The notes beneath the pieces were generated by a model. The model searched no databases and was not told where the DNA came from. It was given only the letters and a program-made list of their open reading frames with translations. Positions 4,098 through 56,033 of a stretch of 64,000 bases of DNA are shown one piece after another (the stretch's first letter is position 1; each line of letters starts with the position of its first letter). The position numbers were made by a program, and so were the translations under genes. This DNA comes from Thermodesulfobacteriota bacterium (GTDB lineage: Bacteria; Desulfobacterota; Binatia; Bin18): NCBI GenBank assembly GCA_964291405.2, contig OZ219926.1, forward strand, positions 3,744,001 through 3,808,000, read 5' to 3'.

Positions 4098-5336
4098 TCA
4101 CCGGCGTACCCCCGGTATCTCTACAGGCAGGCCGCGGCCGCGCCAGGCTAGATACAATTCGAGATTCACGTAGTCGTCGGCCCCGTGGGCCAGGGGTTGG
4201 GCGCGGGTCGCGGTGTTGCACCAGGCAAACATGCGATGCGTTGACCCCAGCGTTTGCCAGCTTAGCCGATAGACGGGGAAGCCGTTGGTCTGTCCCTGGC
4301 TGATGACCTCACCCCGCAGGCGTTGCCCGGCATGCTCGTCGTGGCAATGGCTGCACGCCATGTCGAGTTGGCCGCGACGGCGCATGAAGAACGCTTTGCC
4401 CACCTCGAAAAACGGTGCGACCGGTCCCTCGATGTCCACACTCAGCGGCATCCCGCGTGACTGAAAACTCACAAACGCACTGAGTGCCAGCAAAGCTTCG
4501 GATTCATACGGGTAGGCTTCGACCTGAAGCTGTTCTGTCCGACAGCGATTAATCCGTTGCTCCAGATTGATGAGTTTCTCCGTGCGTGGATCGAATTGTG
4601 GGTAGCGGGTACGTACCCCGCGCATACTAGTTGCCGCGTCTCCATGACAACTGACACACGCCTGTTGGCTGTCGCCCTGGGTCTGGTCCCATAACTCACG
4701 GCCACGCTCGACCCATAACATCCCCGGATTGCCAAACGCGTCATTCTGTAGCTGTCGGTGTTCCTCCGACAGATAGGTATAACCGGAGCGACGACCTTCG
4801 ATACCGTACGGGGAAGTCTCGCGCTGCGGACTGCTCGGGATTTGGCCAGCCTCCGTCGCCTGTGGAGCTTCAGAGCGAAGCGTCAGGAGATACGCCACGA
4901 CATCTTCGATTTCCTGTGCGGTGAGGATCGGCTTGCCCCGGTAGGCTTCGAGTACGGAATGCAGACCCGCCACCGTATGATACGCCGGCATGATGGAGTG
5001 CGGGTTCAGCGCTTTGGGGTCTAGCAGTCGCAGGCGCAACTCAGCGGCGGTATAGCGATTCCCGACGTTATCCAAAGGTAACCCTACCGTGCCGTGGAAG
5101 CGGCGTTCGGGCAGCGGCAAGGCATGGCACACCACGCAATCGCCGCGCTCCCGATCGAGCACGATACGCTGTCCTCGCTCCGCGTCGCCGGGCTGTTCGG
5201 TCAAGGGGGTGGAAATCTCTTCATACCGGGTCTGCGGGCCGTCGAACTGCTGATTCTCCTGGGCGTAGAGAGTGCTCAGCACGAGAAGTCCGATCCACAT
5301 CTGGATAACAAAAGCTTTCCAATAGCTTCCGTACAT
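4098..5336 (-). CDS. soxXA: Fused SoxX-SoxA c-type cytochrome
   Basis: Signal peptide; SoxX domain (GDAERG, CVVCH, SIMPAY, LTAQEIEDVVAYL); SoxA domain (NPGMLWVERG, CVSCH, LEQRINRCR, RRGQLDMACSHCH, GFPVYR, catalytic-type Cys in FAWC, LELYL). Start moved to ATG 5336. Confidence 0.9.
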   Translation of the reverse strand: MYGSYWKAFVIQMWIGLLVLSTLYAQENQQFDGPQTRYEEISTPLTEQPGDAERGQRIVLDRERGDCVVCHALPLPERRFHGTVGLPLDNVGNRYTAAELRLRLLDPKALNPHSIMPAYHTVAGLHSVLEAYRGKPILTAQEIEDVVAYLLTLRSEAPQATEAGQIPSSPQRETSPYGIEGRRSGYTYLSEEHRQLQNDAFGNPGMLWVERGRELWDQTQGDSQQACVSCHGDAATSMRGVRTRYPQFDPRTEKLINLEQRINRCRTEQLQVEAYPYESEALLALSAFVSFQSRGMPLSVDIEGPVAPFFEVGKAFFMRRRGQLDMACSHCHDEHAGQRLRGEVISQGQTNGFPVYRLSWQTLGSTHRMFAWCNTATRAQPLAHGADDYVNLELYLAWRGRGLPVEIPGVRR

Positions 5337-5349
5337 CGTAGCGTCGCCT

Positions 5350-6624
5350 TTACCCAAACGTATCGGCTGTAATATTGGCGTACCATGAGCGGGCGTAGGC
5401 CGCTTCGAGGGCGCGGGTTGTCTCCGGCGCGTTAAGCGGACTCGTGCCGCTCGACCCTGGGACGACCTGAATCGTATCGTTTTCAACGGAATACACGGCA
5501 CTGATAGAGATACCGTAGTCAGGCGCAACCAGGCTGTAACAGGTATTCATCAATGCCGGCTGTGCAACCGGCTCACCCCGGAGCCGGGCGACAATGGCCG
5601 CGGCGCAGCCCTTGGCCTGATTATTGGCGCTAAAGGCGGATTTGGGCATGGGGCTGGCGATGGCTGCGTCGCCAATAATATGGATGTTGGCATGTACGCG
5701 GGATTCGAATGTGCTGCCGTGTACGGGGCACCAGCCCGTACCAGCGTCGAGCCCGTCCACTCGCGTAATCGCTGCCGCGCGCTGCGGAGCAACAATGTTA
5801 GCTACCGCGGGCTTATACTCGTCAAACTCCGTGCGGACGATGCCGGTGCGGGTATCGACCTGGGTGACCCGTCCGCCCTGGGCGCCCGGTACCCATTCGA
5901 GCAGGTTCGGATATAGCTGCTTCCACGCGTCGAGAAACAGCTTGTCCTTGGTGAAACTGTCCTTGGCATCCAACAATAAGACTTTTGATTTTGGCTTATG
6001 GGTTTTGAGATAGTGAGCAATCAAACTGGCTCGTTCATACGGTCCTGGCGGACAACGGTAGGGCGTCTCCGGTACGCTGATCACCACTAGCCCGCCGTCT
6101 TCCATGGCTTCCAGTTGGCGGCGCAGCAGCAGCGTTTGCGAACCGGCCTGCCAGGCGTGCGGGAACACCGTACTGGCTTCGGCATCATAACCTTCTATTA
6201 CGTCCCAGCGCAGTTCAACCCCAGGGGATAAAACAAGCCTGTCATAGGCTAAGGTGCTACCATCACTGAGGGTGAGAATCCGTACGGTGGGATCAATCCC
6301 CTGGGCTTGGGCTTGGACAATCTGCACGCCATAGCCTTCCCGGAGCCGTCGGTAGGTATGAGTCAATGAGGCGAGCGAGCGAAGACCAGCCAGGGCCGCG
6401 TTGCTGAACGGACAAGTGATAAACTGACGCTGTGGGGTCACCAGCGTAACTTCAAGGCTTGGGTCGGCCAAGCGTAGATACTTTGCGCAGGCCGCCCCGC
6501 CAAAACCACCACCAACAACGACGACCCTGGCCTGGGTGTTTGCCCGCGCTCTGCCGGTCAGCAGACGAGCGAAAGGGAGGCTTCCGGCCAGGCTGAAGAA
6601 TTGACGGCGGGTGAAAAAGGACAT
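5350..6624 (-). CDS. soxF: Flavocytochrome c sulfide dehydrogenase flavoprotein (SoxF/FccB)
   Basis: Tat motif TRRQFF; VVVVGGGFGG; CPFSN; YRCPPGPYER; MPKSAFSAN; NTCYSL. Confidence 0.9.
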   Translation of the reverse strand: MSFFTRRQFFSLAGSLPFARLLTGRARANTQARVVVVGGGFGGAACAKYLRLADPSLEVTLVTPQRQFITCPFSNAALAGLRSLASLTHTYRRLREGYGVQIVQAQAQGIDPTVRILTLSDGSTLAYDRLVLSPGVELRWDVIEGYDAEASTVFPHAWQAGSQTLLLRRQLEAMEDGGLVVISVPETPYRCPPGPYERASLIAHYLKTHKPKSKVLLLDAKDSFTKDKLFLDAWKQLYPNLLEWVPGAQGGRVTQVDTRTGIVRTEFDEYKPAVANIVAPQRAAAITRVDGLDAGTGWCPVHGSTFESRVHANIHIIGDAAIASPMPKSAFSANNQAKGCAAAIVARLRGEPVAQPALMNTCYSLVAPDYGISISAVYSVENDTIQVVPGSSGTSPLNAPETTRALEAAYARSWYANITADTFG

Positions 6625-6960
6625 CTAGTGCTGTCTGCGTGACCGTATAGCTGCGAAATAGGTTGTTACTGCCTCAATGTCCGCCTCACTCAGCCCTTTG
6701 GCAATCTGATTCATCACCGTCCCCTGACGCTCTTCGGTCCGAAACGCTTGTATGGCCGCTCTGAAATCCTCGGGTGACAGCCCGTCAAGCGCGGGAATGG
6801 CGCCCTGACTCTGCCCGTCAGGGCCGTGACAGGCCGCACAGGCCTGAGCCCAGGCCGCGCCGCGTGCCGGGATGGGGGCTGCGCTCACCAGGGTAGGGGA
6901 TGCCAGCAGGCCTGCCAGCAGGACAAAGAGCTGTTGTGTCAGGACAAGCGACCGTCTCAT
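6625..6960 (-). CDS. Monohaem cytochrome c (FccA/c4-like)
   Basis: Signal peptide, CAACHG, TVMNQIAKG; start overlaps the soxZ stop (ATGA). Confidence 0.85.
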   Translation of the reverse strand: MRRSLVLTQQLFVLLAGLLASPTLVSAAPIPARGAAWAQACAACHGPDGQSQGAIPALDGLSPEDFRAAIQAFRTEERQGTVMNQIAKGLSEADIEAVTTYFAAIRSRRQH

Positions 6961-7280
6961 TCGCTGACCGTGAGCGCTACGCGCTCGGATGTCGTGACTC
7001 CGGTATCGTCTGTCCACACGCACTCCAACTCGCCCGACCCTTCGGCTGTGGTAAAAAACGAGAAATACGGATTGGCGGCAATGCCGGGAAAGAGCTCCGC
7101 GTGGAAAACCTCTGCCCCGTTGTACATGCACCGAACGGTATGCACGATGTTTTTGGGAATCTTCTGGCCCACGTTGTTATATCGGAAGCCCGTTTCCATG
7201 GGGTGGCGGATGAGCAAACGCACCTCAAAGACCGCTCCGCGTTTGACACCCTCAGGGACTTTGATTCTCGCCTTGGTCAT
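6957..7280 (-). CDS. soxZ: SoxZ sulfur-carrier subunit
   Basis: EVRLLIRHPMETG, GIAANPYFSF and WTDD motifs. Confidence 0.88.
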   Translation of the reverse strand: MTKARIKVPEGVKRGAVFEVRLLIRHPMETGFRYNNVGQKIPKNIVHTVRCMYNGAEVFHAELFPGIAANPYFSFFTTAEGSGELECVWTDDTGVTTSERVALTVSE

Positions 7281-7296
7281 GCCGTATGTCGCCCGC

Positions 7297-7779
7297 TCAG
7301 CTTCCCTCAACACAGGCCGCGGCCGTGACAACGACTTCCGCGCTTGCCATCCAGGCTGTTCCGTCATTCATGACCGCAACCGCAACAACCTGCTGGGTGC
7401 CGGCCAGTCGAATCCGGGTGTGGACCTCGGCCCGTCCGGCTCGTGGTCCAAGTGAGAAGCGGGCAATAACCGGTCTGGGGTTTTTTTCAGAAAAAATATG
7501 AATCCGCTGCACATGGGCCTGCGATGTCATCGGACTCTCAACCTGAACCCGCAGCCGGACGGAGTGGCCACTTTCGGCCAGGGTTGGCAGGGTCAGTGAG
7601 ACGCGACCGACCTGGGGCATCACCCCTCCGGCTGCCTCACGAATGAGCGGCACGAGCTTCTCGGGAAGAGCGTCTGCCGAACGCGCCTTCCCGAGCGGCA
7701 CGAGCAGGTAGCCCAGGGAACCAAGCAGACCAACGAGCACATGTCGCCGTGACAGACGATTAGGCCGGGCGTAAATCAT
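7297..7779 (-). CDS. SoxY paralogue with AACxE-type arm
   Basis: Tat motif SRRHVL; AESGHSV, EKNPRP, TRIRLAGTQQV; C-terminus VVVTAAACVEGS instead of the canonical GGCGG. Confidence 0.88.
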   Translation of the reverse strand: MIYARPNRLSRRHVLVGLLGSLGYLLVPLGKARSADALPEKLVPLIREAAGGVMPQVGRVSLTLPTLAESGHSVRLRVQVESPMTSQAHVQRIHIFSEKNPRPVIARFSLGPRAGRAEVHTRIRLAGTQQVVAVAVMNDGTAWMASAEVVVTAAACVEGS

Positions 7780-9934
7780 GATTCTTTAACGGCAACGAAC
7801 GAATGCGCCTGCCAGTTGCCGCAAAGATGGCATTACACAGCGCCGGTGCAAGCGGGGCCATGCCCGGCTCGCCCACGCCACCCCAAAAACCGCCGGTCGG
7901 CTTGAGGATCACCTCAACCGTGGGCATCTCGGCTATCCGCATCATCCGGTAGTCATGAAAATTTGACTGTTCAACCCGGCCCTCCTTAATGGTGATCTCT
8001 CCGTACAGCGCGGCTGTCAGGCCGTAGACCACGCTACCTTCGAGTTGAGCCCGGACCGAGTCGGGATTGGCCACATAGCCGCAGTCAATACCGACAACCA
8101 CGCGATGGATGGTCAACTCACCTGAGACATTGACCGAGGCCTCAATGACCGCCGCAGTATAGCTTTCGTAGGAGTCCTGCACGGCAATCCCGCGGTGTAC
8201 GCCTTCCGGCAGAGGGCTATCCCATCCGGCGGCCTCAGCGACCGCGTCCAGAATGGCCAAGTCCTTCGACGCCTGAGGGGTCTGGAGGAGTACGCGTCGA
8301 AATTGGTACGGGTCCTGTCCGGCCGCATGGGCTAACTCATCAATAAAACTCTCCCGAAAGAACGGATTATGGGTGTGCGCCACCGCCCGCCACGGCCCTG
8401 GCGGCACGTGGGTGTTACGCATGGCGTATTCCATATGCATGTTCGGAAAGGCATACGGCGTGTCGGCAAAGGTCCGAACACCGACGATATCAACCCCGTC
8501 CCGAATCAGATGAGGGCGGACTGCACTGAAAATCGACTGCTCGGCCTGGCGCACGGTCCAGGCGGTTGGTTCTCCGGCCGCGTTGAGCGCGGCTCTCATG
8601 CGAACCAGGGCTACCGGCCGATAGCGACCGTGCTGGATATCCTCTTCTCTGGACCAGATCAATTGCACCGGGGTGCCGGACATGGTTTTGGCAATCCTGA
8701 CAGCCTGGCGAACAAACTCGATATACAGCCCGCGCCGCCCGAACCCTCCCCCGAGATGAACCTTGTGGACCTCGACCCGACTCACCGGAACGTCCGCGGT
8801 TTCAGCGGTCACGGCCGCGGTGGCCTCACTGTTCTGGGCCGGTGCCCAGACGTCAACCCGCTTGTCCGTATACAGCGCCGTGCAGTTCTGCGGTTCCATG
8901 GTGGCGTGCTCAAGATAGGGGGCATAATAGTCGGCTTCGATCGTTGTGGCCGCGTCGGAAAACGCGCTGTCGATATCGCCTTCCTGACGTGAGACCGGTG
9001 CCTTTTCGAGTTGTATGCCCTCGCGCAGAAACTCCAGGATGCTGTCGCTGCTAACCTGAGCGTGCTCCCCAAAATCCCACTCAATCGGCAGCGCACGGAG
9101 CGCCTGCTGCGCGTTCCACCAGCTCTCTTTGGCAACAACGACGACCGCGTCTTCCAGAGGAACGACCTTGACCACCCCGCGCATGTCGGCAATTTTTTTT
9201 GCGTCTACGCCTTTCAGGCTGCCGCCGAACACCGGACACTGGGCAATCGCGGCATAGACCATGCCGGGCAGCCGGGTATCAATCGCAAACGCGGTCTTGC
9301 CAGTGACCTTATCCGGGATGTCGAACCGGGCGGCCGGTTGGCCCAAAAGGGTCCAGTCTGCGGGGTCTTTGAGCAGTGGATTTTCCGGAATGTCGAGCGT
9401 GGCTGCCTCGGCCGCCACCGCCCCGAAGCTGAGTTGTTGCTGGGTTGGGATATGGGTGATGAGGCTGTTCTCGGCGACACATTCCGCGACCGGCACACCC
9501 CAGCGCTGCGCGGCCGCGGCGGTCAACATCAGCCGGGCCGCGGCTCCGGCGGTACGCAGATAGTCCTGGCTGTCCCGGATCGACCGGCTGCCGCCGGTGA
9601 GCATGGTGCGAAAAATCCGATTACGCCGCAGATGTTCGCTGGTTGACGCATATTCGGCCTGTACCTTACTCCAGTCACAGGCCAACTCTTCGGCAACCAG
9701 CATGGGCAGGCCGGTAAAATTACCCTGGCCCATTTCCACCCGTGCCACGCGAATGATGATGGTATCATCCGGTCGAATCAGGACCCAGGCGGTCACTTCG
9801 GGACTGGTCTCAACCTGAGCACTCGCCTGCTCCGCCTCTGCCGCAGAAGACTTGGGAAGTGTCACTTCCAGGAGCAGTCCACCCCCGACCGCGGCCGAGC
9901 GTAACAAAAACGAACGACGGGACATATGTTTCAT
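7760..9934 (-). CDS. iorB: Xanthine oxidase-family molybdoprotein, isoquinoline 1-oxidoreductase beta / periplasmic aldehyde oxidoreductase-like
   Basis: Tat motif SRRSFL; EMGQG, TGGSRS, HATMEP, LGGGFGRR, WRAV, GGVGEP, RIRSLP. Confidence 0.88.
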   Translation of the reverse strand: MKHMSRRSFLLRSAAVGGGLLLEVTLPKSSAAEAEQASAQVETSPEVTAWVLIRPDDTIIIRVARVEMGQGNFTGLPMLVAEELACDWSKVQAEYASTSEHLRRNRIFRTMLTGGSRSIRDSQDYLRTAGAAARLMLTAAAAQRWGVPVAECVAENSLITHIPTQQQLSFGAVAAEAATLDIPENPLLKDPADWTLLGQPAARFDIPDKVTGKTAFAIDTRLPGMVYAAIAQCPVFGGSLKGVDAKKIADMRGVVKVVPLEDAVVVVAKESWWNAQQALRALPIEWDFGEHAQVSSDSILEFLREGIQLEKAPVSRQEGDIDSAFSDAATTIEADYYAPYLEHATMEPQNCTALYTDKRVDVWAPAQNSEATAAVTAETADVPVSRVEVHKVHLGGGFGRRGLYIEFVRQAVRIAKTMSGTPVQLIWSREEDIQHGRYRPVALVRMRAALNAAGEPTAWTVRQAEQSIFSAVRPHLIRDGVDIVGVRTFADTPYAFPNMHMEYAMRNTHVPPGPWRAVAHTHNPFFRESFIDELAHAAGQDPYQFRRVLLQTPQASKDLAILDAVAEAAGWDSPLPEGVHRGIAVQDSYESYTAAVIEASVNVSGELTIHRVVVGIDCGYVANPDSVRAQLEGSVVYGLTAALYGEITIKEGRVEQSNFHDYRMMRIAEMPTVEVILKPTGGFWGGVGEPGMAPLAPALCNAIFAATGRRIRSLPLKNHDLRPA

Positions 9935-9944
9935 CGGCACGTCT

Positions 9945-10447: not shown

Positions 10448-12397
10448 TCACTTACACACGTGTGGACTCGGCGGCACGTCTAAAGCAGGGCTGCGTTCAA
10501 AAAAGCCCACCGGCATCAGACTGAAGCCGGCATACTCGACCGGCATCACCGGCCAATCTTCGGGTCGCGGAATATGAGTGAGGCCAAAGGTATGCCAGAC
10601 AACGATATCGGTGTTCTCGATATTGCGTCCACGTGAATAGCGAAGCAGGCCCTCACCGCCGGGGCTCTGAAGCGTGATGTCGCCGGCCGCGCTGAGTTCG
10701 TCCGGCGTAAACGCGGTGACCCACAGATTATGCTGGGCAAACCCGGCCCGCTGCCCCACATAGGAGTCCGCCTGGGCAAACAGCGTCGGCGTCGCGCCAG
10801 CAAGCAGCTTATAGCCGACCGGCACCCCCAGCCGGTTTGTCCGTTGCGGGTTGACGATCTTCCAACTCCGGCTGGCCCGCGGGTCAATATCCCGCCGCGC
10901 CTCATCCTCGGATGCCAGGAGCGTCGTCTTGGCGCGGAACTGCGTCCCGTGCGGATTGTCCGGTCCGTGCGGCACGGGTTCGACATCGACCTCGTAGACC
11001 GAGTTGTGCTCACCGTCCACATCAAAATCGAGCCGAAAACAGAACAGATGCTGGTGAATTGGGGAGGCCAGGTTAGGCGCAATCAGCGGAGCGAACTCGG
11101 GCTGCTCGGCCCCGGTTTCAACCGCGCTGACACCGACGATACCGGTCAGTTTGACCTCCATCTGAATCGTACCGTCCAGATACAAATACCAGAAGAAGCC
11201 ATACTCATAATTCCCGACCGTAAAGAACGAGCTGACCACCAAACGTCGCGAGCGCCGAACTTCCGTGGTCGCGGACAGCAGGTCCCGGTGCTTCCACAGT
11301 ACGCCGTAATCTTCTTCGTGCATGCAGATGGCGTTTTCGATCGTATAGACAGAACCGTCGGCCAGCAGCGTGGGCATATCAAAGTAATAGATTTCGCCCA
11401 GACAATCGCAGCCCAGGGTGAGTGAATTGGCCAGATTGCCCACACTCGCTTCGCTGGCATCCAGCACGTGTTTCCAGGTGTGCATGGGGTCGCGGTCGCC
11501 ATAGGGCACCACCATGTCCGCCAGCGATGCCCGATACAGGATGGACCGCCGCTCCCCGGCATCGTCATAACTCAGGGTATGCAGGACCAGGCCGTGCTGG
11601 GGGTGCATACCGACCCGGAACGACCATTTCTGCCATTCCACCGCGTATCCATCGACGCGGAAACTCGGCCCCTCGGGTTGGGTAATGGAAAGAGGTTTCA
11701 GGTCGGCCCGCAGTGAAGGCTGATGGCCGGCCTCGTACCGCCCGCTCTCCGGCGGCAGGGCGACCGCGCCGTGGTCTTCCAGATGGACCACCCGGCCCGC
11801 GGTCAGGTCCACGTGGGCAATCAGACCCTGGAGCGGACGGGCATAGCCGTTGTCGGTTTTGTCCTCACGCACAAAGGCAATCGTCCGGGCCAGGCGATGG
11901 GTAGGGTCCACGCCGTTGGGGAGCGGGCCACTGCCCGGCCACATATCGATTTGCACCCGGCGCATATCCTCGATGCCGCGCCGTCTCACCGCGGCCTGCC
12001 AGGCGGGGTCGGCTTTGGTGAGCTTGATCGATAGCATGAGGTCCATTCCCCCAAACGGCACTTGGCCGCTGCTGAGACGCTGCACCTCAAGCAGTTCTCC
12101 CGTCGTGATATTAACCCGCGCCGCAAAACTGCCGGCCTGCCTGCCGTTGGCGTACTCGTCCACCCCCAGGAAGCGTAGCACCCGGGCAAAAGGCACGCCT
12201 GGGGTAAAGGCCTTGACCTCATCCTTGGGCGGCTCCACCAGACTGACGCTGGAGAAGGCGACCTGACCGCTCAGTTCGCCCGAGCCTTTGAGGATGGCCA
12301 CGCCGCGCTCAATCTCGCTCTGGCTCAGCGGCTCCAGGGGATGCGTGGGGGCGGTCTGCACGTGGTCTTCCTGTATATTCTGTATGGCGCTGGTCAT
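10448..12397 (-). CDS. Copper/TPQ primary-amine oxidase
   Basis: HPLEPL N-terminus, LGCDCLG, TVGNYEY topaquinone consensus, HQH and HIPRPEDWPVMP copper-ligand motifs; no signal peptide. Confidence 0.93.
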   Translation of the reverse strand: MTSAIQNIQEDHVQTAPTHPLEPLSQSEIERGVAILKGSGELSGQVAFSSVSLVEPPKDEVKAFTPGVPFARVLRFLGVDEYANGRQAGSFAARVNITTGELLEVQRLSSGQVPFGGMDLMLSIKLTKADPAWQAAVRRRGIEDMRRVQIDMWPGSGPLPNGVDPTHRLARTIAFVREDKTDNGYARPLQGLIAHVDLTAGRVVHLEDHGAVALPPESGRYEAGHQPSLRADLKPLSITQPEGPSFRVDGYAVEWQKWSFRVGMHPQHGLVLHTLSYDDAGERRSILYRASLADMVVPYGDRDPMHTWKHVLDASEASVGNLANSLTLGCDCLGEIYYFDMPTLLADGSVYTIENAICMHEEDYGVLWKHRDLLSATTEVRRSRRLVVSSFFTVGNYEYGFFWYLYLDGTIQMEVKLTGIVGVSAVETGAEQPEFAPLIAPNLASPIHQHLFCFRLDFDVDGEHNSVYEVDVEPVPHGPDNPHGTQFRAKTTLLASEDEARRDIDPRASRSWKIVNPQRTNRLGVPVGYKLLAGATPTLFAQADSYVGQRAGFAQHNLWVTAFTPDELSAAGDITLQSPGGEGLLRYSRGRNIENTDIVVWHTFGLTHIPRPEDWPVMPVEYAGFSLMPVGFFERSPALDVPPSPHVCK

Positions 12398-12438: not shown

Positions 12439-13185
12439 TCAGCGTCCGCCCGAAATATCGTAGATCGTGGTGGTGACGTACGAGGCCTCATCCGTGCAGA
12501 TCCACACCACCAGATTGGCCACCTCTTCGGGCTCGCAGATACGCCCCAGGACCGTCTGCGCTTTGGCAATGGCTTCGGCCCGCTCAATGCCGATACTCGC
12601 TTCAAAAATTTCCGTCCGGGTAATTCCGGGCCGCACGCAACAGACCCGGATCCCCTCGGGTCCGACTTCCCTGGACAGGCCCATGGTAAAGGAATCAAGC
12701 GCACCCTTGCTGGAGGCGTAGACCACATCACCCGGCAGCCCACCGTACCGCGAGGAAATGGAGCCGACGTTGACGATCACGCCTCCGGCGCCACCACGTT
12801 TGGTGGACATACGTTTAATGGCCTCGCGAGCGCTTACGAACACGCCAAAGATATTGAGATTATAAACTCCCCGGATACGCTCCAACTTGGCGTCGACGAC
12901 CGCCGTCTCATAGTCGATCGCGGCATTATTCACCAGGGCGGTGACCGGGCCGAGTTCGGCATCGGTCCGGCGAAACAACTCAACAACGCCCTCTTCCGTT
13001 CCCACATCAGCTTGCACGGCAATCGCCCGTTGCCCGGCCTGGGTCACGTCGTGGACCACCTCTTCGGCCCGGTCCTTGGCACGCGCATAATTGACGCATA
13101 CGTCAAACCCGGCCCGCGCCGCTCGCCGTGAAATAGCGGCTCCAATGCCGCGACTTCCTCCCGTCACGATCATGACACCCGACAT
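12439..13185 (-). CDS. SDR family oxidoreductase
   Basis: TGGSRGIG, LVNNA, YASSK. Confidence 0.9.
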   Translation of the reverse strand: MSGVMIVTGGSRGIGAAISRRAARAGFDVCVNYARAKDRAEEVVHDVTQAGQRAIAVQADVGTEEGVVELFRRTDAELGPVTALVNNAAIDYETAVVDAKLERIRGVYNLNIFGVFVSAREAIKRMSTKRGGAGGVIVNVGSISSRYGGLPGDVVYASSKGALDSFTMGLSREVGPEGIRVCCVRPGITRTEIFEASIGIERAEAIAKAQTVLGRICEPEEVANLVVWICTDEASYVTTTIYDISGGR

Positions 13186-13198
13186 CCTGTCTCCTTTT

Positions 13199-15265
13199 TT
13201 AGAGGGCAATCGTCAGCAGAGAACTGCCGTCGGCCTGGACGGTCAGCCGGTCAGCCGGGTTGACGACCACCGTGGTCGTGGCGAACTCAACGATAGCCGG
13301 GCCGGTGAGCTGGTCACCCGCCGCCAGCGCGTCGCCCTGATAAATGTCGGTTTCCACCTCGGCATTGACCCCGGCCATATAGGCCATGCGTCGGCTGGTC
13401 GGTTGTGGCCGGCCCGCGGCCTGTTTGGCCAGCCGCCCCTCGGGGGCGGGGCGGTTACCCGTGGCGGCGATCCGCCAGTGCAGGCACTCAATGGGCTGGT
13501 CGCGCATCGAATAGGTAAATCGCCGCTCGTGCTCGTCATGAAAGTCGGCTTCGAGTCGCCGCAAGAGGTCGGCGTCAATCGGTCCTTCTGGCAGCGGTAC
13601 CGTCAGGTTGTGAACCTGGCCCGGATAGCGTCCCTCCAGGTGCCGGGCGAACCGAACCTCTTCGGGCTGAAAGCCCTCCTCCTCAAGATGGGCGCCGCCC
13701 TCGGCGATCAAGTCGTCAAACACCCGGGCGATGTCCGTGGCAGCGCCTGACTGATTCGTATAGCAGTGGTGGAGGCGCACATAGTCATGCCGCACCGGCG
13801 TAACCGCCATACCGAACGCGCACAGCCCACCCGCGGAGCGCGGAATCAGCACCTCTCCGATCTCAAGCATGCGGGCCAACTCGGCCGCGTGCAGGCCACC
13901 CGCACCGCCGCCCGCAACCATGACATAGTCGCGAGGATCGATGCCGCGCTCAATCGAGACCGCTCGGATGGCCGAGGCCATATTCGAGTTCACGATGGTC
14001 AGGATGCCGGCCGCTGCCTCGCGGACGGACAGTCCCAACGGCGTGGCAATATGTTCGGCGATGGCCCGTTGTGCGAGGCTCTCGTCGAGGGAACGCCGTC
14101 CGCCCAGAAACGCACCGGGCGACATCCGCCCGACGGCCAGGTTGGCGTCGGTGACTGCGGGCGCACGGCCACCCCGGCCATAACAGGCCGGACCCGGCTG
14201 GGAACCTGCGCTCTGTGGTCCAACCCGCATCGCCTTGCCGCTGTCGAGCCAGGCAATGGAGCCGCCACCGGCGCCGATCGATAGCACTTCGACCCCATTC
14301 ACCCCGATAGGCTGGTGGGCAACCTTAATATCGGTTGACATGACCGGTTCGCTGTCGCGCAGCATGCAGACGTCGAAGCTGGTCCCGCCCATGTCGATAA
14401 TGATCAGCCGGTCGGGGGCTTTGGTATCCGAGGCGTAGTGCGCACCCGCGGCCGGTCCGGCCGCGGGACCCGAGGCCACCGCGTTGACAGGTCGGGCCAA
14501 AAGGTCCGGCACAGACGCACAGCCGCCGTTGACCTGCATGATCTGGGGCGGGTGGGGCAGGCCGCCGGCCACCATCTCTTTCTCAAAGGCGCGTAGATAG
14601 TCACCGATAATAGGCGCGATATAGGCCGACAGCACGGTTGCCGAGGTGCGTTCCCACTCGCGAATCTCCGGCAGGACATCGGAAGAGCACAGCACATCGA
14701 CGCCGGGCAGCTCCTCGCGCACGATCTCTGCGGTTCGTCTTTCGTGGCTCGGATCGACGATGGACCACAGATAGGCAACCGCCACCGCTTTGACGCCGTG
14801 GGCGCCGAGCCGCTGGGCCGCGACGCGAACCGCCTCTTCGTCGAGCGGCAGGACCTCGGAGCCGTCTGCGCCGGTACGCTCGGGAATGCCCAGACGCAAA
14901 TAGCGTGGAATAAAGTCCTCGGGCTTCTGGAGGTGGATGTTGAATCGCTCGGGCTTCCCGCCCCGGCCCAGATACATGATATCCCGGAGCCCCTGGGTAC
15001 ACAGCAGGCCAATGACCGGACCGTTGCGCTGTATCAGGGCGTTGGTCGCCATGGTCTGGCCGTGAACCAGAAATTCCGTCTCACGCAAAAGCTCTGCGAC
15101 CGTGGTCCCTGCTTCCCCGGCCATCCCGCTGAGCCCCCGCGTAATCGCGAGCAGCGGTTGGTCAGGAGTCGAGTCTTCTTTGTAGACGTGGAACCTGCCG
15201 TCGTCGCGCAGCAGGACCACATCGGTGAAGGTGCCGCCGATATCGATACCGACTCGATGCCCCAT
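13199..15265 (-). CDS. Hydantoinase A / oxoprolinase ATP-binding subunit
   Basis: GIDIGGTFTD, SGPAAG, DMGGTSFDV, GAGGGS, VGPQSAG..PGPACY. Confidence 0.93.
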   Translation of the reverse strand: MGHRVGIDIGGTFTDVVLLRDDGRFHVYKEDSTPDQPLLAITRGLSGMAGEAGTTVAELLRETEFLVHGQTMATNALIQRNGPVIGLLCTQGLRDIMYLGRGGKPERFNIHLQKPEDFIPRYLRLGIPERTGADGSEVLPLDEEAVRVAAQRLGAHGVKAVAVAYLWSIVDPSHERRTAEIVREELPGVDVLCSSDVLPEIREWERTSATVLSAYIAPIIGDYLRAFEKEMVAGGLPHPPQIMQVNGGCASVPDLLARPVNAVASGPAAGPAAGAHYASDTKAPDRLIIIDMGGTSFDVCMLRDSEPVMSTDIKVAHQPIGVNGVEVLSIGAGGGSIAWLDSGKAMRVGPQSAGSQPGPACYGRGGRAPAVTDANLAVGRMSPGAFLGGRRSLDESLAQRAIAEHIATPLGLSVREAAAGILTIVNSNMASAIRAVSIERGIDPRDYVMVAGGGAGGLHAAELARMLEIGEVLIPRSAGGLCAFGMAVTPVRHDYVRLHHCYTNQSGAATDIARVFDDLIAEGGAHLEEEGFQPEEVRFARHLEGRYPGQVHNLTVPLPEGPIDADLLRRLEADFHDEHERRFTYSMRDQPIECLHWRIAATGNRPAPEGRLAKQAAGRPQPTSRRMAYMAGVNAEVETDIYQGDALAAGDQLTGPAIVEFATTTVVVNPADRLTVQADGSSLLTIAL

Positions 15266-15267
15266 GT

Positions 15268-17193
15268 TTAGGTCTCCTGCGGCGGAGCGCTGAAGTTCCG
15301 GGCGATGGTCGGGGCTTCGAGATAGCGGTCGCCGGGGCGCATGTTCTGCTGCGTCCACGTGCCGGCAGCCGGGGTGGTGGGCTCGATCATCGGGCGTTCG
15401 TTCTTACGCATTTCGGCCCGGAGCTTTTCGGTCGCGGCAACGTCGAGGCTGCGCTCAAGATCGTCCTTGACCACCACGCCAAACACGTTGTAGGCCGTGT
15501 CTTCGCTGATCCACTCGTCCCGCAGATCGCGGCGCACCTGTTCCGGGTCGCGGTCAAGCGGGTTGCCCCAGCCGCCGCCGCCTGCGGACACCCCGTTCCA
15601 GGTTTCGCCTTCGCGAATCAGTAATTGCCCCGCGGAGGAGGTAAACGTCCGGCTGCCATCAGCGTGCTCAATATAGATGCCGCCGCCTGGGCTCATGGTA
15701 CCGCCGTTCACCCCGTGCGGCGGGTTCTTCAGGCCCTCACCAAAGCCGACACACTCCATGTCACCGGCAATCGGCCGATAGCGCGTGCGCAGCCCTGGCC
15801 CACCGATCCACTTTCCCATGCCTATGGCATCGGTCTCAATCTCGTTCTGCTCGACGCGGATCGGATAGAGCAACTCCAACTGCTCGATCGAGGCCGAGGT
15901 GAGCCCGCCCATGCCGGCGATGGTGCACAGGACTGGCCACCCATCGGCGTCCTTTGCCGCGCCCTGGCCCCCACCGCTGTTGAACAGCATACAGCCCCAC
16001 TCCTTGCCGGTTCGGGAATCAACCCCGTTAAAATTCGGAACATGAGCGGTGTGCGCCCCGCCCGCGGGCACACGCTCGGGGATGGCCTCAGCCATGGCGA
16101 TATTGATCACCTCGTGCATAGGGTCGGCCGGATTCTGGGTTGCCCCTGCCACCGCGGCCGGCCACTTGGCCAGGCAGATGGTGTTGTCGTCGGCGTTGGC
16201 GCTGATGTGTTGCAGCACACCGTGGTTATGAGGAATGTCGGAGTCAATATAGTACAGGAAGGGGATCGTCGAGGTTGCCATCATGACCGCATAGGTCGCG
16301 TTGAACGAGCCGGTGGACGGCGGCCCCCCGCTGTAGTGCACGTGGATATCCGCGCCCTTCTTGGTGATGGTGGCCCGGATCGGGATATCGGTGGCCCCAT
16401 TGCCGTCGGTATCGGTCCAGGTCTCGCCGTGGTAGATGCCGTCGGGAATCGCGCGGAACTCCTCCGACGCGCGCTGGTCGGCGTAATCCATGAGCCCGTC
16501 GCTATAGCGCACGACCTCGTCGCGGCCGTACTGCTCGCACAGCTCGATCAGTCCCTTGCGGGCCACGCCACAGGCCCCGAGCTGGGCGCGCAGGTCGCCG
16601 TGCAGGGCGTCCCGATAGCGCACGTTGGCGAGATACAGCTCGACAATATCGTGGCGTTCGATCCCGCGGTCGACCAGCTTGGTCGGCGGAATGACGATGC
16701 CCTCCTGGAAGATCGTCTTTGCCGCAGGCACGATGCTCGACGCTTCGATAGCACCGGTATCGAGCTGATGGCCACGCGCCACGGTCCAGAACACCTGCTT
16801 GCCGTCCACAAAGACCGGCTGGGCCGTCACCAGGTCCGGGATATGGGTGTTGCCCCGATAGGGGTCGTTCGACATATACACGTCGCCGTCGTGGATATCG
16901 TCCCCAAACACGGAGACAATTTCCATCAGCAGGGTCCGAATGCTGTTGCAGTGGATAGGCAGGCAATCGGCCATGGTGACCTGACGCGGCCCGCTAGAGT
17001 GGGCGTCGTAGATCATGCACGAGTAGTCGCGGGCCAGGGCGATAACCGAGGTCCAGGCCGTCTGCTCCATGGCCAGGGTCATCTCCTGACCGATGGCTTC
17101 AAAGCGGTTGCGGATCACACTAAAAGTGATGGGGTCGAACGCTGCCTCCGTGGGCGGCAGAGGGATGGCATCAATCTTACTGGCCGTTGCCAT
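15268..17193 (-). CDS. Hydantoinase B / oxoprolinase catalytic subunit
   Basis: DPITFSVI, ARDYSC, NDPYRGNTHIPD, GGGGWGNP. Confidence 0.92.
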   Translation of the reverse strand: MATASKIDAIPLPPTEAAFDPITFSVIRNRFEAIGQEMTLAMEQTAWTSVIALARDYSCMIYDAHSSGPRQVTMADCLPIHCNSIRTLLMEIVSVFGDDIHDGDVYMSNDPYRGNTHIPDLVTAQPVFVDGKQVFWTVARGHQLDTGAIEASSIVPAAKTIFQEGIVIPPTKLVDRGIERHDIVELYLANVRYRDALHGDLRAQLGACGVARKGLIELCEQYGRDEVVRYSDGLMDYADQRASEEFRAIPDGIYHGETWTDTDGNGATDIPIRATITKKGADIHVHYSGGPPSTGSFNATYAVMMATSTIPFLYYIDSDIPHNHGVLQHISANADDNTICLAKWPAAVAGATQNPADPMHEVINIAMAEAIPERVPAGGAHTAHVPNFNGVDSRTGKEWGCMLFNSGGGQGAAKDADGWPVLCTIAGMGGLTSASIEQLELLYPIRVEQNEIETDAIGMGKWIGGPGLRTRYRPIAGDMECVGFGEGLKNPPHGVNGGTMSPGGGIYIEHADGSRTFTSSAGQLLIREGETWNGVSAGGGGWGNPLDRDPEQVRRDLRDEWISEDTAYNVFGVVVKDDLERSLDVAATEKLRAEMRKNERPMIEPTTPAAGTWTQQNMRPGDRYLEAPTIARNFSAPPQET

Positions 17194-56022: not shown

Positions 56023-56033
56023 GCGGTCCCTCC

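What the first reader, a model, noticed from the sequence alone, without database searches (positions are those of the whole stretch)
4098..17193. 11-gene operon joining lactam/amine catabolism and a periplasmic molybdoenzyme to a non-canonical Sox module
Seen: hyuB, hyuA, SDR, Cu amine oxidase, iorA, iorB, soxY-like, soxZ, cyt c, soxF and soxXA are co-oriented with gaps of about 40 bp or less, or overlaps; the iorB stop overlaps the soxY start. IorB, SoxY and SoxF carry Tat motifs. No soxB or soxCD lies in the window. Known: hydantoinase/oxoprolinase pairs open cyclic amides with ATP, Cu amine oxidases make aldehydes, IorAB-type enzymes oxidise aldehydes or N-heterocycles, and classical Sox thiosulfate oxidation needs SoxB. 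Inference: this is not lithotrophic Sox. One option is a pathway for an S/N heterocycle (thiazolidinone, thiolactam) whose released sulfur is captured on SoxYZ. Another is a periplasmic relay that restores the Mo=S ligand of IorB or takes its electrons. A third is that IorAB replaces SoxCD/SoxB on the carrier-bound substrate. Best candidate for an undescribed system.
Basis: partly seen in the sequence, partly recalled or inferred. Interest (0 to 1): 0.82.

Follow-up and report, generated by a model that had tools for sequence, protein, structure and literature searches.

The report
Molybdoenzyme-linked SoxB-less Sox cassette
The eleven genes are real, but they are two neighbouring units: an ordinary cytoplasmic lactam/amine set, and a widely conserved, still uncharacterised periplasmic cassette that pairs a molybdenum hydroxylase with an unusual sulfur-carrier protein.

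Summary
Eleven minus-strand genes (17193 to 4098) are packed with gaps of -20 to +41 nt. The iorB stop overlaps the soxY start, three Tat motifs are present, and no SoxB was found in the 97.5%-complete genome.

The "11-gene operon" is not one functional unit. hyuBA-SDR-CuAO encodes cytoplasmic proteins and lies beside the Sox genes only in this Candidatus Binatia genus. In 10 of 19 genus loci it is separated from them by 0.8-5.9 kb, with opposite-strand genes in the inserts examined. It also occurs in genomes that lack the Sox genes.

The second unit is a conserved cassette: iorA-iorB-soxY(AACVE arm)-soxZ-cyt c-soxF-soxXA.
- AAC-arm SoxY sits directly behind IorB in 19/19 genus loci and 22/24 informative copies elsewhere.
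- It is clustered with IorAB in 12/12 Hyphomicrobiales loci, against 0/10 canonical GGCGG-SoxY loci.
- The linked IorBs form one clade.

The cassette has been seen before. Starkeya novella's "second sox cluster" carries a xanthine-oxidase-family enzyme (PMC3797975), and the carrier type has the model TIGR04487. Its function is unknown.

My leading, inferred mechanism is that IorAB oxidises a species bound to the carrier cysteine, independently of SoxB and SoxCD.

The parts
15268..17193 (-). HyuB (hydantoinase B/oxoprolinase family, 641 aa); neighbouring module, not part of the cassette
   Evidence: PF02538 449 bits. Caprolactamase beta NF050157 scores 395.9, below its cut-off of 1000. No signal peptide. 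The genome has 22 paralogues.
13199..15265 (-). HyuA (hydantoinase A/oxoprolinase family, 688 aa); neighbouring module
   Evidence: PF01968, PF05378 and PF19278. Caprolactamase alpha NF050156 scores 672, below its cut-off of 1000. The genome has 23 paralogues.
12439..13185 (-). Short-chain dehydrogenase/reductase (248 aa); neighbouring module
   Evidence: PF00106 and PF13561.
10448..12397 (-). Copper primary-amine oxidase (649 aa), no signal peptide; last gene of the neighbouring module
   Evidence: PF01179 518 bits. NF008559 scores 829 bits, above its cut-off of 651. Single copy in the genome. Present in relatives that lack the cassette.
9945..10418 (-). IorA: [2Fe-2S] small subunit of the xanthine-oxidase-family enzyme (157 aa); first gene of the cassette
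   Evidence: PF01799 and PF00111. It follows CuAO after 29 nt that hold an AAGGAG. Conserved directly upstream of IorB in 19/19 genus-like and 20/22 other informative loci.
7760..9940 (-). IorB: Tat-exported molybdopterin subunit (726 aa)
   Evidence: PF02738 and PF20256. SRRSFL motif. The closest solved chain is 8gy3_C, the large subunit of an aldehyde dehydrogenase, at E 9e-69 over residues 5-724. The GEPG glutamate (E691) aligns there and is invariant in 15 orthologues. It belongs to the SoxY-linked clade.
7297..7779 (-). SoxY paralogue with C-terminal ...VVVTAAACVEGS arm (160 aa, Tat signal)
   Evidence: PF13501 111 bits. TIGR04487 (AACIE arm) scores 161.6 against a cut-off of 172. TIGR04488 (true SoxY) scores 104 against a cut-off of 125. 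Cys156 aligns with the carrier cysteine of solved SoxY 2ox5_Y. The arm is conserved in homologues.
6957..7280 (-). SoxZ (107 aa)
   Evidence: PF08770 95.5 bits. TIGR04490 scores 85.1, above its cut-off of 76.
6625..6960 (-). Monohaem c-type cytochrome (111 aa, signal peptide), in the SoxE/FccA position
   Evidence: PF00034. One CAACH motif. Directly precedes SoxF with a 0-nt gap.
5350..6624 (-). SoxF/FccB flavoprotein of flavocytochrome c sulfide dehydrogenase (424 aa, Tat signal)
   Evidence: PF21706 and PF09242. Matches 5n1t_A at E 1e-151 and 1fcd_A at 3.5e-129.
4098..5336 (-). SoxX-SoxA fusion cytochrome (412 aa, three CxxCH)
   Evidence: TIGR04484 SoxA scores 224.8 (cut-off 110) and TIGR04485 SoxX scores 73.8 (cut-off 61). 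Matches 1h31_A at 1e-55 and 1h31_B at 3e-22. A cysteine aligns at ...FAWC... opposite ...FRGC... of 1h31_A.

Best explanation
The 13-kb stretch holds two units that happen to abut in this genome.

Unit 1 (17193-10448) is hyuB-hyuA-SDR-Cu amine oxidase. It is an ordinary cytoplasmic set for opening a cyclic amide and oxidising the resulting amine. It is one of more than twenty hyuAB pairs in this Candidatus Binatia genome, which is associated with sponge and marine samples.

Unit 2 (10418-4098) is a self-contained periplasmic cassette of seven genes: iorA, iorB, soxY(AACVE arm), soxZ, cyt c, soxF and soxXA. It belongs to a conserved cassette that has been spread horizontally. The same gene set is the 'second sox cluster' of Starkeya novella.

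Shown:
- The AAC-arm SoxY and a dedicated IorB clade travel together across Binatia, Methylomirabilota-labelled, Burkholderiales and Hyphomicrobiales genomes.
- Canonical GGCGG SoxY loci do not have IorAB.
- In Binatia the cassette is the only Sox system, with no SoxB.

Inferred mechanism:
1. SoxEF (sulfide dehydrogenase) and SoxXA (oxidative S-S coupling) load a sulfur species onto Cys156 of the SoxY arm.
2. The Tat-exported Mo-hydroxylase IorAB then oxidises the carrier-bound species. It takes the place that SoxCD and SoxB hold in the classical pathway.
3. Electrons pass through its two [2Fe-2S] clusters to the c-type cytochromes and on to respiration.

The substrate is probably not thiosulfate.

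My odds:
- Two separable units: about 0.9.
- IorAB and SoxYZ work in one pathway: about 0.8.
- IorAB acts directly on a species bound to SoxY: about 0.45.
- That species is inorganic sulfane sulfur: about 0.3.
For: Gene identities.

Separability of the two units:
- CuAO lies within 10 kb of the carrier gene in 19/19 genus-like loci but 0/17 informative loci outside the genus.
- The CuAO-iorA spacer is 33 nt or less in 9 of 19 genus loci and 0.78-5.9 kb in the other 10.
- Inserts examined hold opposite-strand genes: MacB/FtsX, ABC ATPase and LolA-like genes in L046, a PIN gene in L053 and a MazF gene in L057.
- CuAO is present in G008, G014, G019 and G030, which lack the cassette. In G025 it lies on another contig.
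- Unit 1 proteins lack signal peptides, while IorB, SoxY and SoxF have Tat motifs.

Linkage of IorAB with the AAC-arm SoxY:
- IorB lies directly upstream on the same strand in 19/19 genus-like and 22/24 other informative SoxY copies.
- In 41 relatives' genomes, IorB orthologues of at least 75% identity occur in exactly the 20 genomes that have the carrier. They are absent from the 6 genus genomes that lack it.
- In a 301-genome sample of the order of G432, 12/12 fetched AAC-arm loci have IorA-IorB in the cluster. None of 10 canonical GGCGG loci do.
- In 5 of 5 of those genomes the best match to the window's IorB (49-53% identity) is the cassette copy. Paralogues reach only 27-43%.
- All 29 SoxY-linked IorBs form one clade against 13 paralogues, with SH-aLRT 93, or 98 without the long Pelagibacterium branch.
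- Sixteen positions are invariant or nearly so in that clade and rare in paralogues. They include F685 and W686 next to the catalytic-Glu loop, and N370 and E372.

Autonomy from classical Sox:
- SoxB scores over its cut-off in 0/41 relatives.
- It is also missing from G432, G435 and G436, but present on other contigs in two Burkholderiales MAGs.

Prior observation: in S. novella, soxX2Y2Z2A2F2 sits with a xanthine-oxidase-family enzyme in one operon without soxB or soxCD, and is barely expressed on thiosulfate (PMC3797975, passages).

Contigs of RNA libraries cover parts of both units at high identity. This is weak evidence, because DNA carry-over is not excluded.
Against: - No xanthine-oxidase-family enzyme is known to act on a sulfur atom or on a protein-tethered substrate. 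This rests on established knowledge of the family, not on a test here.
- Without SoxB there is no evident way to release the oxidised sulfur.
- Two AAC-arm copies break the pattern. L082 (a 4.8-kb contig) has cyt c-SoxY-SoxZ-SoxA with no IorB in the 3.1 kb upstream. L086 has IorBA divergent rather than directly upstream.
- L084 and L085 have IorAB-SoxYZ but no SoxXA or SoxF. L085 has a DoxX gene instead. The loading enzymes I invoke are therefore not universal.
- In S. novella the cluster's SoxAX and SoxYZ proteins were not detected, and the authors suggested it had no functional significance under the conditions tested.
- In this genome nothing argues against read-through from CuAO into iorA: the gap is 29 nt and no terminator-like site lies there. 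The eleven genes may therefore be co-transcribed here even though they are separable units.
Confidence: 0.6

Rival explanations
1. IorAB is an ordinary periplasmic aldehyde or N-heterocycle dehydrogenase. It merely shares c-type cytochrome electron acceptors with a truncated sulfide-oxidising Sox/FCSD set. SoxYZ serves only SoxXA and SoxEF, and IorB never touches the carrier.
For: - The closest solved relative of IorB is the large subunit of an aldehyde dehydrogenase (8gy3_C, 9e-69), with the catalytic glutamate conserved.
- From my own recall, enzymes of this type use a cytochrome c subunit. The cassette offers four haems.
- In L081 two PQQ dehydrogenases lie just downstream.
Against: - The invariant core across lineages is IorA-IorB-SoxY-SoxZ, not IorAB plus cytochromes. 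L084 and L085 keep SoxYZ but lack SoxXA, SoxF and the small cytochrome.
- iorB and soxY overlap by 20 nt here.
- The linked IorBs form a dedicated clade with clade-specific residues beside the catalytic loop.
- Canonical SoxY loci never have IorAB: 0/10.
Confidence: 0.22
2. The AAC-arm SoxYZ tethers a carbon substrate rather than sulfur. An example would be an aldehyde held as a thiohemiacetal, which IorAB oxidises. This would be analogous to the SoxYZ-like carriers associated with periplasmic quinoprotein dehydrogenases.
For: - NCBIfam holds a model for a 'quinoprotein dehydrogenase-associated SoxYZ-like carrier' (TIGR04557). Both SoxY and SoxZ here match it weakly.
- PQQ dehydrogenases lie next to the tandem cassettes in L081.
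- IorB resembles an aldehyde dehydrogenase.
Against: - The cassette usually includes two sulfur-specific enzymes that pass curated thresholds: SoxA and SoxX and an FCSD flavoprotein at 1e-151 to 5n1t.
- Xanthine-oxidase-family aldehyde oxidation uses water and needs no thiol carrier (established knowledge).
Confidence: 0.08
3. One reading: all eleven genes form one pathway for an S/N heterocycle or thiolactam, and the released sulfur is captured on SoxYZ.
For: - Tight packing of the eleven genes in this genome and in 9 of 19 genus loci.
- No terminator-like site at the junction.
- RNA-library contigs cover both halves.
Against: - The association is confined to one genus: 0/17 elsewhere.
- In the other 10 genus loci 0.78-5.9 kb lie between the halves, with opposite-strand genes in the inserts examined.
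- Each half occurs without the other.
- The halves work in different compartments.
- HyuAB is a 22-23-member family in this genome.
Confidence: 0.04
4. SoxYZ, SoxXA and SoxEF form a periplasmic relay that re-sulfurates the Mo=S ligand of exported IorB.
For: - Strict IorB-SoxY co-occurrence.
- Xanthine-oxidase-family enzymes need a terminal sulfido ligand (established knowledge).
Against: - In L086 a MobA-like nucleotidyltransferase and an XdhC-family gene lie beside the cassette. From recalled knowledge of XdhC, this suggests the usual cytoplasmic maturation before Tat export.
- Five redox proteins are a heavy apparatus for repair.
- No other periplasmic IorAB paralogue in the same genomes has such a relay.
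Confidence: 0.04
5. The cassette is a functionless duplicate of Sox components, as was suggested for S. novella under the conditions tested.
For: Very low expression, and no SoxAX2 or SoxYZ2 protein detected, in S. novella on glucose, methanol or thiosulfate (PMC3797975).
Against: - Intact reading frames and a conserved arm and catalytic residues across several lineages.
- It is the only Sox system in Binatia.
- Contigs from RNA libraries match it at 99-100%.
Confidence: 0.02

Closest known systems
Second sox gene cluster of Starkeya novella (soxX2Y2Z2A2F2, Snov_1982-1977, plus xanthine-oxidase-family enzyme Snov_1975/1976; PMC3797975)
   Same: It has the same seven kinds of component: SoxX, SoxY, SoxZ, SoxA, the two flavocytochrome c subunits, and a two-subunit xanthine-oxidase-family Mo enzyme. 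They sit in one cluster without soxB or soxCD.
   Different: - I could not obtain the Snov sequences, so orthology to that particular cluster is inferred from composition only.
- Gene order differs. Here it is iorAB-soxYZ-cyt c-soxF-soxXA. In the Hyphomicrobiales loci it is iorAB-(cyt c)-soxF-(soxX)-soxYZ-soxA.
- SoxX and SoxA are fused here.
- In S. novella it is a second set beside a complete Sox system. In Binatia it is the only one.
Classical periplasmic Sox thiosulfate-oxidising system (SoxXA, SoxYZ, SoxB, SoxCD)
   Same: - SoxA, SoxX and SoxZ pass the NCBIfam equivalog cut-offs.
- The carrier cysteine aligns with that of solved SoxY.
- A SoxEF-type flavocytochrome is present.
   Different: - The arm is AAACVEGS, not GGCGG. 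The SoxY_true score is 104, below the cut-off of 125.
- There is no SoxB in the genome and no SoxCD.
- A xanthine-oxidase-family enzyme stands in their place.
SoxCD sulfane dehydrogenase (sulfite-oxidase-family Mo enzyme acting on SoxY-bound sulfane)
   Same: It is the proposed functional analogue: a periplasmic Mo enzyme genetically tied to SoxYZ that passes electrons to c-type cytochromes.
   Different: The Mo-enzyme family is unrelated (xanthine oxidase family with two [2Fe-2S] clusters, against the sulfite oxidase fold with a dihaem SoxD). Activity on the carrier is not shown here.
Aldehyde dehydrogenase of PDB entry 8gy3 (a membrane-bound enzyme of acetic acid bacteria, by my recall) and IorAB-type two-subunit Mo hydroxylases
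   Same: IorB aligns over its full length (E 9e-69). Both share the Tat signal, the GGGFGRR and GEPG motifs, a separate [2Fe-2S] subunit and the absence of an FAD subunit.
   Different: Identity is low. The cassette IorBs form their own clade with specific residues near the catalytic loop. Their gene partner is a SoxYZ carrier rather than the cytochrome c subunit I recall for that enzyme.
TIGR04487 'SoxY-related AACIE arm protein' and TIGR04557 'quinoprotein dehydrogenase-associated SoxYZ-like carrier' (NCBIfam)
   Same: The window's SoxY is closest to TIGR04487 and carries the AAC[VI]E arm. TIGR04557 is a precedent for SoxYZ-like carriers tied to periplasmic dehydrogenases outside the Sox system.
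   Different: The score of 161.6 is just under the TIGR04487 cut-off of 172. The G025 orthologue and 9 of 301 genomes in the order of G432 pass it. TIGR04557 proteins are SoxY-SoxZ fusions (per the model's description), and the genes here match that model only weakly.

Membership tests
Classical Sox thiosulfate-oxidising system | SoxY carrier with a C-terminal GGCGG arm | tested here: not met
   The tail is ...VVVTAAACVEGS. TIGR04488 scores 104 against a cut-off of 125.
Classical Sox thiosulfate-oxidising system | SoxB sulfate thiohydrolase in the genome | tested here: not met
   TIGR04486 gave no match in G000, which is 97.5% complete. It scored over its cut-off in 0 of 41 relatives.
Classical Sox thiosulfate-oxidising system | SoxXA cytochrome complex and SoxZ | tested here: met
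   TIGR04484 scores 224.8 (cut-off 110), TIGR04485 scores 73.8 (cut-off 61) and TIGR04490 scores 85.1 (cut-off 76).
Classical Sox thiosulfate-oxidising system | SoxCD sulfane dehydrogenase linked to the sox genes | tested here: not met
   Only a SorA-like/SorB-like pair was found, about 0.23 Mb away. SorA scores 270.6 against 600 and SoxC scores 203.8 against 420.
TIGR04487 SoxY-related AACIE arm protein | Score over the curated cut-off | tested here: not met
   161.6 bits against 172. It is the best-scoring SoxY model for this protein. The orthologue in G025 scores 177.9.
TIGR04487 SoxY-related AACIE arm protein | AAC-[aliphatic]-[acidic] arm in place of GGCGG | tested here: met
   The window has AACVE. 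Related loci have AACVE, AACIE, AACID, AACTE, SACLD and similar.
SoxB/CD-less sox cluster with a xanthine-oxidase-family enzyme (Starkeya novella type) | SoxX, SoxY, SoxZ, SoxA, flavocytochrome c and a two-subunit xanthine-oxidase-family enzyme in one cluster, without soxB or soxCD | tested here: met
   All seven are present at 4098-10418. The same composition is described in PMC3797975.
SoxB/CD-less sox cluster with a xanthine-oxidase-family enzyme (Starkeya novella type) | Sequence orthology to Snov_1975-1982 | not testable with these tools
   No Snov sequences were available.
IorAB-type two-subunit xanthine-oxidase-family Mo hydroxylase | [2Fe-2S] small subunit, MoCoBD_1/2 large subunit, catalytic glutamate, no FAD subunit | tested here: met
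   PF01799 and PF00111; PF02738 and PF20256. E691 in GEPG aligns to 8gy3_C and is invariant in 15 orthologues. There is no FAD_binding_5 gene in the cluster.
IorAB-type two-subunit xanthine-oxidase-family Mo hydroxylase | Activity on isoquinoline or aldehydes | not testable with these tools
   Needs an enzyme assay. No NCBIfam equivalog cut-off is reached.
Flavocytochrome c sulfide dehydrogenase (FccAB/SoxEF) | FCSD flavoprotein with a Tat signal and an adjacent c-type cytochrome | tested here: met
   PF21706 and PF09242. 5n1t_A at 1e-151. TRRQFF motif. The monohaem cytochrome lies directly upstream.
Caprolactamase CapAB | Score over the equivalog cut-offs | tested here: not met
   672 against 1000 (alpha) and 395.9 against 1000 (beta). 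These are generic hydantoinase/oxoprolinase family members.

The most novel reading that the evidence does not exclude
A xanthine-oxidase-family molybdenum hydroxylase (IorAB) works on a sulfur species covalently tethered to the cysteine of an AAC-arm SoxYZ carrier. This would be a third, unrelated kind of 'Sox' oxidoreductase beside SoxB and SoxCD. It would define a SoxB/SoxCD-independent periplasmic sulfur-oxidation pathway, spread by gene transfer among Binatia, Methylomirabilota-labelled, Burkholderiales and Hyphomicrobiales genomes. It would also be the first sulfur-centred, protein-bound substrate known for this enzyme family.
Probability: 0.3. Interest if true: 0.85.

Novelty: new member of a known kind. 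Interest (0 to 1): 0.58.

Why it matters
The classical Sox pathway is a textbook case of carrier-protein biochemistry, and SoxB is widely used as its marker gene. This cassette keeps the carrier, the loading cytochrome and the sulfide dehydrogenase. It replaces SoxB and SoxCD with an enzyme from a family known for hydroxylating carbon. Its carrier arm differs, and its molybdoenzyme forms a dedicated clade.

It was seen once in Starkeya novella and set aside as a silent duplicate. The comparisons here show three things: it is a coherent unit found in several lineages, it can be the only Sox system in a genome, and its two core parts do not occur apart in the genomes sampled.

SoxB-based surveys would miss any sulfur oxidation it performs, for instance in sponge-associated Binatia. 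Carriers that can be grown in the laboratory, such as S. novella and Pelagibacterium mangrovi, make its function directly testable.

The report also removes a tempting but unsupported link between lactam/amine catabolism and sulfur oxidation.

Tried and rejected
1. Complex prediction of IorB (34-726) + IorA + SoxY (38-160), each with an alignment. The verdict was 'no answer' (score 0.02, mark 0.32). This is evidence neither for nor against binding.

2. Search for IorB-SoxY fusion proteins with the 'longer' option. It returned only four longer proteins, including SoxY-SoxZ and SoxY-SoxZ-SoxA forms, and no IorB fusion. The tool itself calls a blank weak evidence.

3. Co-transcription from public RNA libraries. 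Only Logan contigs were available. Short contigs of X1-X4 cover parts of both halves. One X1 contig (7225-7513, no mismatches) spans the soxY-soxZ junction. Contigs cannot show a single transcript, and DNA carry-over is not excluded. The piece list was cut, so I cannot say whether any contig bridges 10418-10448. Parts without cover mean nothing.

4. Promoter and terminator scan. There were no sigma-70-like sites, and terminator-like sites were fewer than in shuffles. It is uninformative for an organism whose promoters are unknown.

5. Phylum-wide search with the SoxY alignment. Only 2 of 401 evenly drawn genomes matched. This shows the cassette is rare and patchy in that sample, but it gave no new loci.

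6. Conserved flanking genes beyond the seven. None is shared by more than a group of close relatives.

7. Methanethiol oxidase (PF05694) as a possible sulfide source: not found in G000.

8. ESM Atlas search. It only re-named the family as SoxY or 'SoxY-related AACIE arm protein'.

9. Literature.
- Searches for SoxYZ + isoquinoline 1-oxidoreductase, AACIE, SoxY + SoxZ + xanthine dehydrogenase family, Binatota + Sox, Binatota + sponge + sulfur and second sox + xanthine oxidase family gave no description of the cassette other than PMC3797975.
- The term searches in PMC11237559 and PMC13500833 gave nothing relevant.
- The Binatota survey PMC8262859 has no occurrence of 'sox' in its main text.
- The library omits most subscription journals, and supplements were not opened.
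- The molybdoproteome paper (Metallomics 2013), the SoxAX review and Masuda et al. 2010 could not be read. They may say more about Snov_1975/1976 and about soxY2 of Bradyrhizobium.
- PMC5748708 (passages) states that only soxY1 of B. diazoefficiens is essential for thiosulfate oxidation. I could not verify that its soxY2 lies in this cassette.

10. Rejected idea: that G027's weak SoxY hit (92 bits) belongs to the cassette. It has no IorAB beside it.

Full report
**Observation.** The stretch 4098-17193 carries eleven co-oriented minus-strand genes (ORFs).

- HyuB and HyuA belong to the hydantoinase/oxoprolinase family. They are caprolactamase-like but well below the equivalog cut-offs.
- An SDR follows.
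- The copper primary-amine oxidase scores 829 bits on NF008559 (cut-off 651).
- IorA is a [2Fe-2S] subunit and IorB a molybdopterin subunit.
- The SoxY-family protein is followed by SoxZ, a monohaem cytochrome c and an FCSD/SoxF flavoprotein.
- The last gene is a SoxX-SoxA fusion.

With the starts I chose, the gaps are 2, 13, 41, 29, 4, -20, 16, -4, 0 and 13 nt. IorB, SoxY and SoxF carry twin-arginine motifs. SoxXA has three CxxCH motifs. The simple scan found no intergenic terminator-like site on the coding strand.

The SoxY tail is ...VVVTAAACVEGS. It scores best on TIGR04487, 'SoxY-related AACIE arm protein' (161.6 bits, cut-off 172). It fails the true-SoxY model (104 against 125).

The genome (4.95 Mb, 97.5% complete) has no SoxB match and only this one SoxY-family gene.

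**Organism and setting.** Public records that hold close relatives of the locus are titled Candidatus Binatia MAGs. Sponge and marine metatranscriptome libraries hold near-identical contigs.

The genome has 22 HyuB and 23 HyuA paralogues. A hyuAB pair next to anything is therefore not remarkable here.

**Two units, not one.** I laid the window's proteins on 20-kb regions around the SoxY homologue of relatives and on 45 loci from public genomes.

The seven genes iorA-iorB-soxY-soxZ-cyt c-soxF-soxXA stay together everywhere that sequence allows. The block hyuB-hyuA-SDR-CuAO behaves differently:
- It is adjacent only in the genus. CuAO lies within 10 kb in 19/19 genus-like loci and 0/17 informative loci outside it.
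- Within the genus the CuAO-iorA spacer is 33 nt or less in 9 loci and 0.78-5.9 kb in 10.
- Inserts examined hold genes on the opposite strand. L046 has MacB/FtsX permease, ABC ATPase and LolA-like genes, L053 a PIN toxin and L057 a MazF-like toxin.
- The amine oxidase, with hyuBA-SDR where checked, is present in G008, G014, G019 and G030, which have neither the IorB orthologue nor the carrier. In G025 it lies on a different contig from the cassette.
- The four proteins of this block lack signal peptides. The cassette is built of Tat- or Sec-exported proteins and their hitch-hiking partners.

In this particular genome the two units abut with a 29-nt spacer that holds only a ribosome-binding site. 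Read-through is therefore possible, but the units are separable in evolution and location.

**The cassette is a conserved entity.** Outside the genus, 22 of 24 informative AAC-arm SoxY copies have IorB directly upstream on the same strand. These come from records labelled Binatia, Methylomirabilota, 'Deltaproteobacteria' and Burkholderiales.

There are two exceptions:
- L082 is a 4.8-kb Burkholderiales contig with cyt c-soxY-soxZ-soxA.
- L086 is Pelagibacterium mangrovi, where iorBA and soxXA lie divergently within 2 kb.

Other evidence for a conserved entity:
- Among 41 relatives' genomes, IorB orthologues of at least 75% identity occur in exactly the 20 genomes that have the carrier. They were not found in the six genus genomes that lack it.
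- In a 301-genome sample of the order of G432, nine genomes pass the TIGR04487 cut-off.
- All 12 AAC-arm loci fetched (those nine plus three borderline) contain iorA-iorB in the cluster. Their tails are AACTEE, AACIED, AACIDG and the like.
- None of 10 canonical loci with GGCGG tails from the same sample does.
- In five of five of those genomes the best match to the window's IorB (49-53% identity) is the cassette copy, while other paralogues reach 27-43%.
- In a maximum-likelihood tree of 42 IorB-type proteins, the 29 SoxY-linked ones form one clade (SH-aLRT 93, or 98 without the long Pelagibacterium branch) against 13 unlinked paralogues. I left out split, partial and much longer fused paralogues.
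- The clade's branching does not follow the taxon labels. The two tandem copies in L081 fall in its two main subclades. Both points suggest horizontal spread.
- No further flanking gene is conserved.

The invariant core is IorA-IorB-SoxY-SoxZ. SoxA or SoxXA is nearly always present. SoxF and the small cytochrome are present in most. L085 has a DoxX gene instead.

**Relation to classical Sox.** SoxB scores over its cut-off in 0 of 41 relatives. It is also missing from the Pelagibacterium, Methylomirabilota-labelled and one delta-labelled genome. It is present on other contigs in two Burkholderiales MAGs.

The cassette can therefore stand alone or coexist with a full Sox system. It is not a fragment that needs a soxB elsewhere. 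A SorAB-like sulfite dehydrogenase is encoded about 0.23 Mb away.

**Component checks.**
- IorB aligns over its full length with the large subunit of an aldehyde dehydrogenase (8gy3_C, 9e-69).
- The GGGFGRR motif and the GEPG glutamate (E691) are conserved and invariant in 15 orthologues.
- Sixteen positions are invariant or nearly so in the linked clade and rare in paralogues. They include F685-W686 directly before the catalytic loop, N370 and E372, and M507-R508-N509.
- That N370 and E372 sit near the molybdenum site is my inference from spacing to the GGGFGRR motif. It is not a structural result.
- SoxF matches solved FCSD flavoproteins at 1e-151 and 3.5e-129.
- The SoxA part matches 1h31_A at 1e-55, with a cysteine aligned opposite its ...FRGC... 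That this is the haem-ligand cysteine is my recollection. The SoxX part matches 1h31_B at 3e-22.
- Cys156 of SoxY aligns with the carrier cysteine of solved SoxY.

**Prior knowledge.** A full-text search led to Kappler and Nouwens 2013 (PMC3797975; passages read).
[quoted passage not shown] - Its SoxAX and SoxYZ proteins were not detected, and transcripts were very low on glucose, methanol or thiosulfate.
- The authors suggested it had no functional significance under those conditions.

PMC5748708 (passages) states that B. diazoefficiens has two soxY genes, of which only soxY1 is essential for thiosulfate oxidation. Whether soxY2 belongs to this cassette I could not check.

The carrier type has an NCBIfam model and appears under that name in the ESM Atlas. 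My other searches found no description of the cassette or of its distribution. The library lacks most subscription journals, and I opened no supplements.

**Mechanism.**

Shown:
- The anatomy of the cassette.
- Export signals on its proteins.
- Conservation of catalytic and carrier residues.
- Strict co-inheritance of a dedicated IorB clade with an AAC-arm SoxYZ.
- Independence from SoxB.

Inferred:
1. SoxEF and SoxXA load a sulfur species on Cys156.
2. IorAB oxidises the bound species and hands electrons through its iron-sulfur clusters to the c-type cytochromes.
3. The S. novella expression data hint that thiosulfate is not the substrate. The Bradyrhizobium result would add to that hint if soxY2 proves to be this cassette.

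Against this reading:
- The xanthine oxidase family has no known sulfur-centred or protein-bound substrate.
- No release step is evident.
- Some variants lack SoxXA and SoxF.

Rival readings are an independent aldehyde or heterocycle dehydrogenase that shares cytochromes, a carbon substrate on the carrier, Mo=S repair, and a silent duplicate. They are weighed in their own section. In L086 a MobA-like gene and an XdhC-family gene lie beside the cassette. By my recollection of XdhC's role, this suggests ordinary cytoplasmic cofactor maturation and so counts against the repair idea.

**Verdict.** What is really there is an ordinary cytoplasmic hyu/amine-oxidase unit beside a member of a conserved cassette. 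That cassette has been noticed before but never characterised. It lacks SoxB and SoxCD and is linked to a molybdoenzyme.

New here:
- The breadth of the cassette across lineages.
- The one-to-one tie between the arm type and an IorB clade.
- The canonical-SoxY control.
- The fact that in Binatia the cassette is the sole Sox system.

The function remains open and can be tested in cultivable carriers.

Noticed in passing
G000 whole genome (tblastn): The genome holds 22 HyuB-like and 23 HyuA-like genes covering more than half the query length. It also has 55 SDR and 31 luciferase-like monooxygenase matches. This is a large expansion of ATP-dependent hydantoinase/oxoprolinase-type enzymes.
   Followed up: partly
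window 3408-4064 (+): A HigB-like toxin (PF05015) and a HigA antitoxin (TIGR02607) lie directly downstream of soxXA. The pair is kept at the same place in several genus relatives.
   Followed up: partly
CuAO-iorA junction in relatives: L044, L046, L047, L050-L053, L056, L057, L080: The spacer that is 29 nt here is a hot spot for insertions of 0.78-5.9 kb in 10 of 19 genus loci. Among the inserted genes annotated are PIN and MazF-like toxin genes and a MacB/FtsX-ABC-LolA-like transporter set.
   Followed up: partly
L081:3209-16973: A Burkholderiales MAG carries two tandem iorA-iorB-soxY-soxZ sets. Their IorBs fall in the two main subclades of the linked clade. The sets are followed by soxA and, further downstream, two PQQ-dependent dehydrogenases.
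   Followed up: partly
L085:4369-4848: In another Burkholderiales MAG, iorAB-soxYZ is followed by a DoxX-family membrane protein. No SoxXA or SoxF lies in the 9.7 kb downstream.
   Followed up: no
L086:10816-12233: In Pelagibacterium mangrovi a MobA-like nucleotidyltransferase and an XdhC-family gene lie directly beside the cassette.
   Followed up: no
window 4098-5336 (-): SoxX and SoxA are fused into one 412-aa protein with three haem motifs. Fused forms of 420-486 aa occur in the non-genus Binatia-type loci. The genes are separate in the Hyphomicrobiales loci. A SoxY-SoxZ-SoxA fusion protein (P0123, 468 aa) also exists in the protein collection.
   Followed up: partly
G011:C1:3557444-3557887 (= L049): The SoxY orthologue of one genus relative has an in-frame TAG. 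Its correct-frame ORF did not appear in the tail listing. It may be a pseudogene or a sequencing error.
   Followed up: no
window 53722-57466 (-): This is a second xanthine-oxidase-family enzyme, of the three-subunit type. It has a large subunit with a hammerhead domain (53722-56022), a [2Fe-2S] subunit at about 56055-56498, and an FAD subunit (56507-57466). I take it to be cytoplasmic, but signal peptides were not checked.
   Followed up: no
window 48884-50872 (-) and 29445-30410 (-): An aldehyde:ferredoxin oxidoreductase (AFOR family) with an adjacent pyridine-nucleotide-disulfide oxidoreductase, and a second TauD-family dioxygenase. The first TauD (17422-18399) is divergent from hyuB.
   Followed up: no
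L101:4540-6179 (G000:C3:3985539-3987178): A SorA-like Mo subunit (270.6 bits, below the cut-off of 600) and a SorB-like cytochrome. This is a probable periplasmic sulfite dehydrogenase, unlinked to the cassette.
   Followed up: partly
G025:C27:40336-41948: The amine oxidase of this relative matches in two pieces covering residues 112-403 and 432-648. The gene may be disrupted.
   Followed up: no
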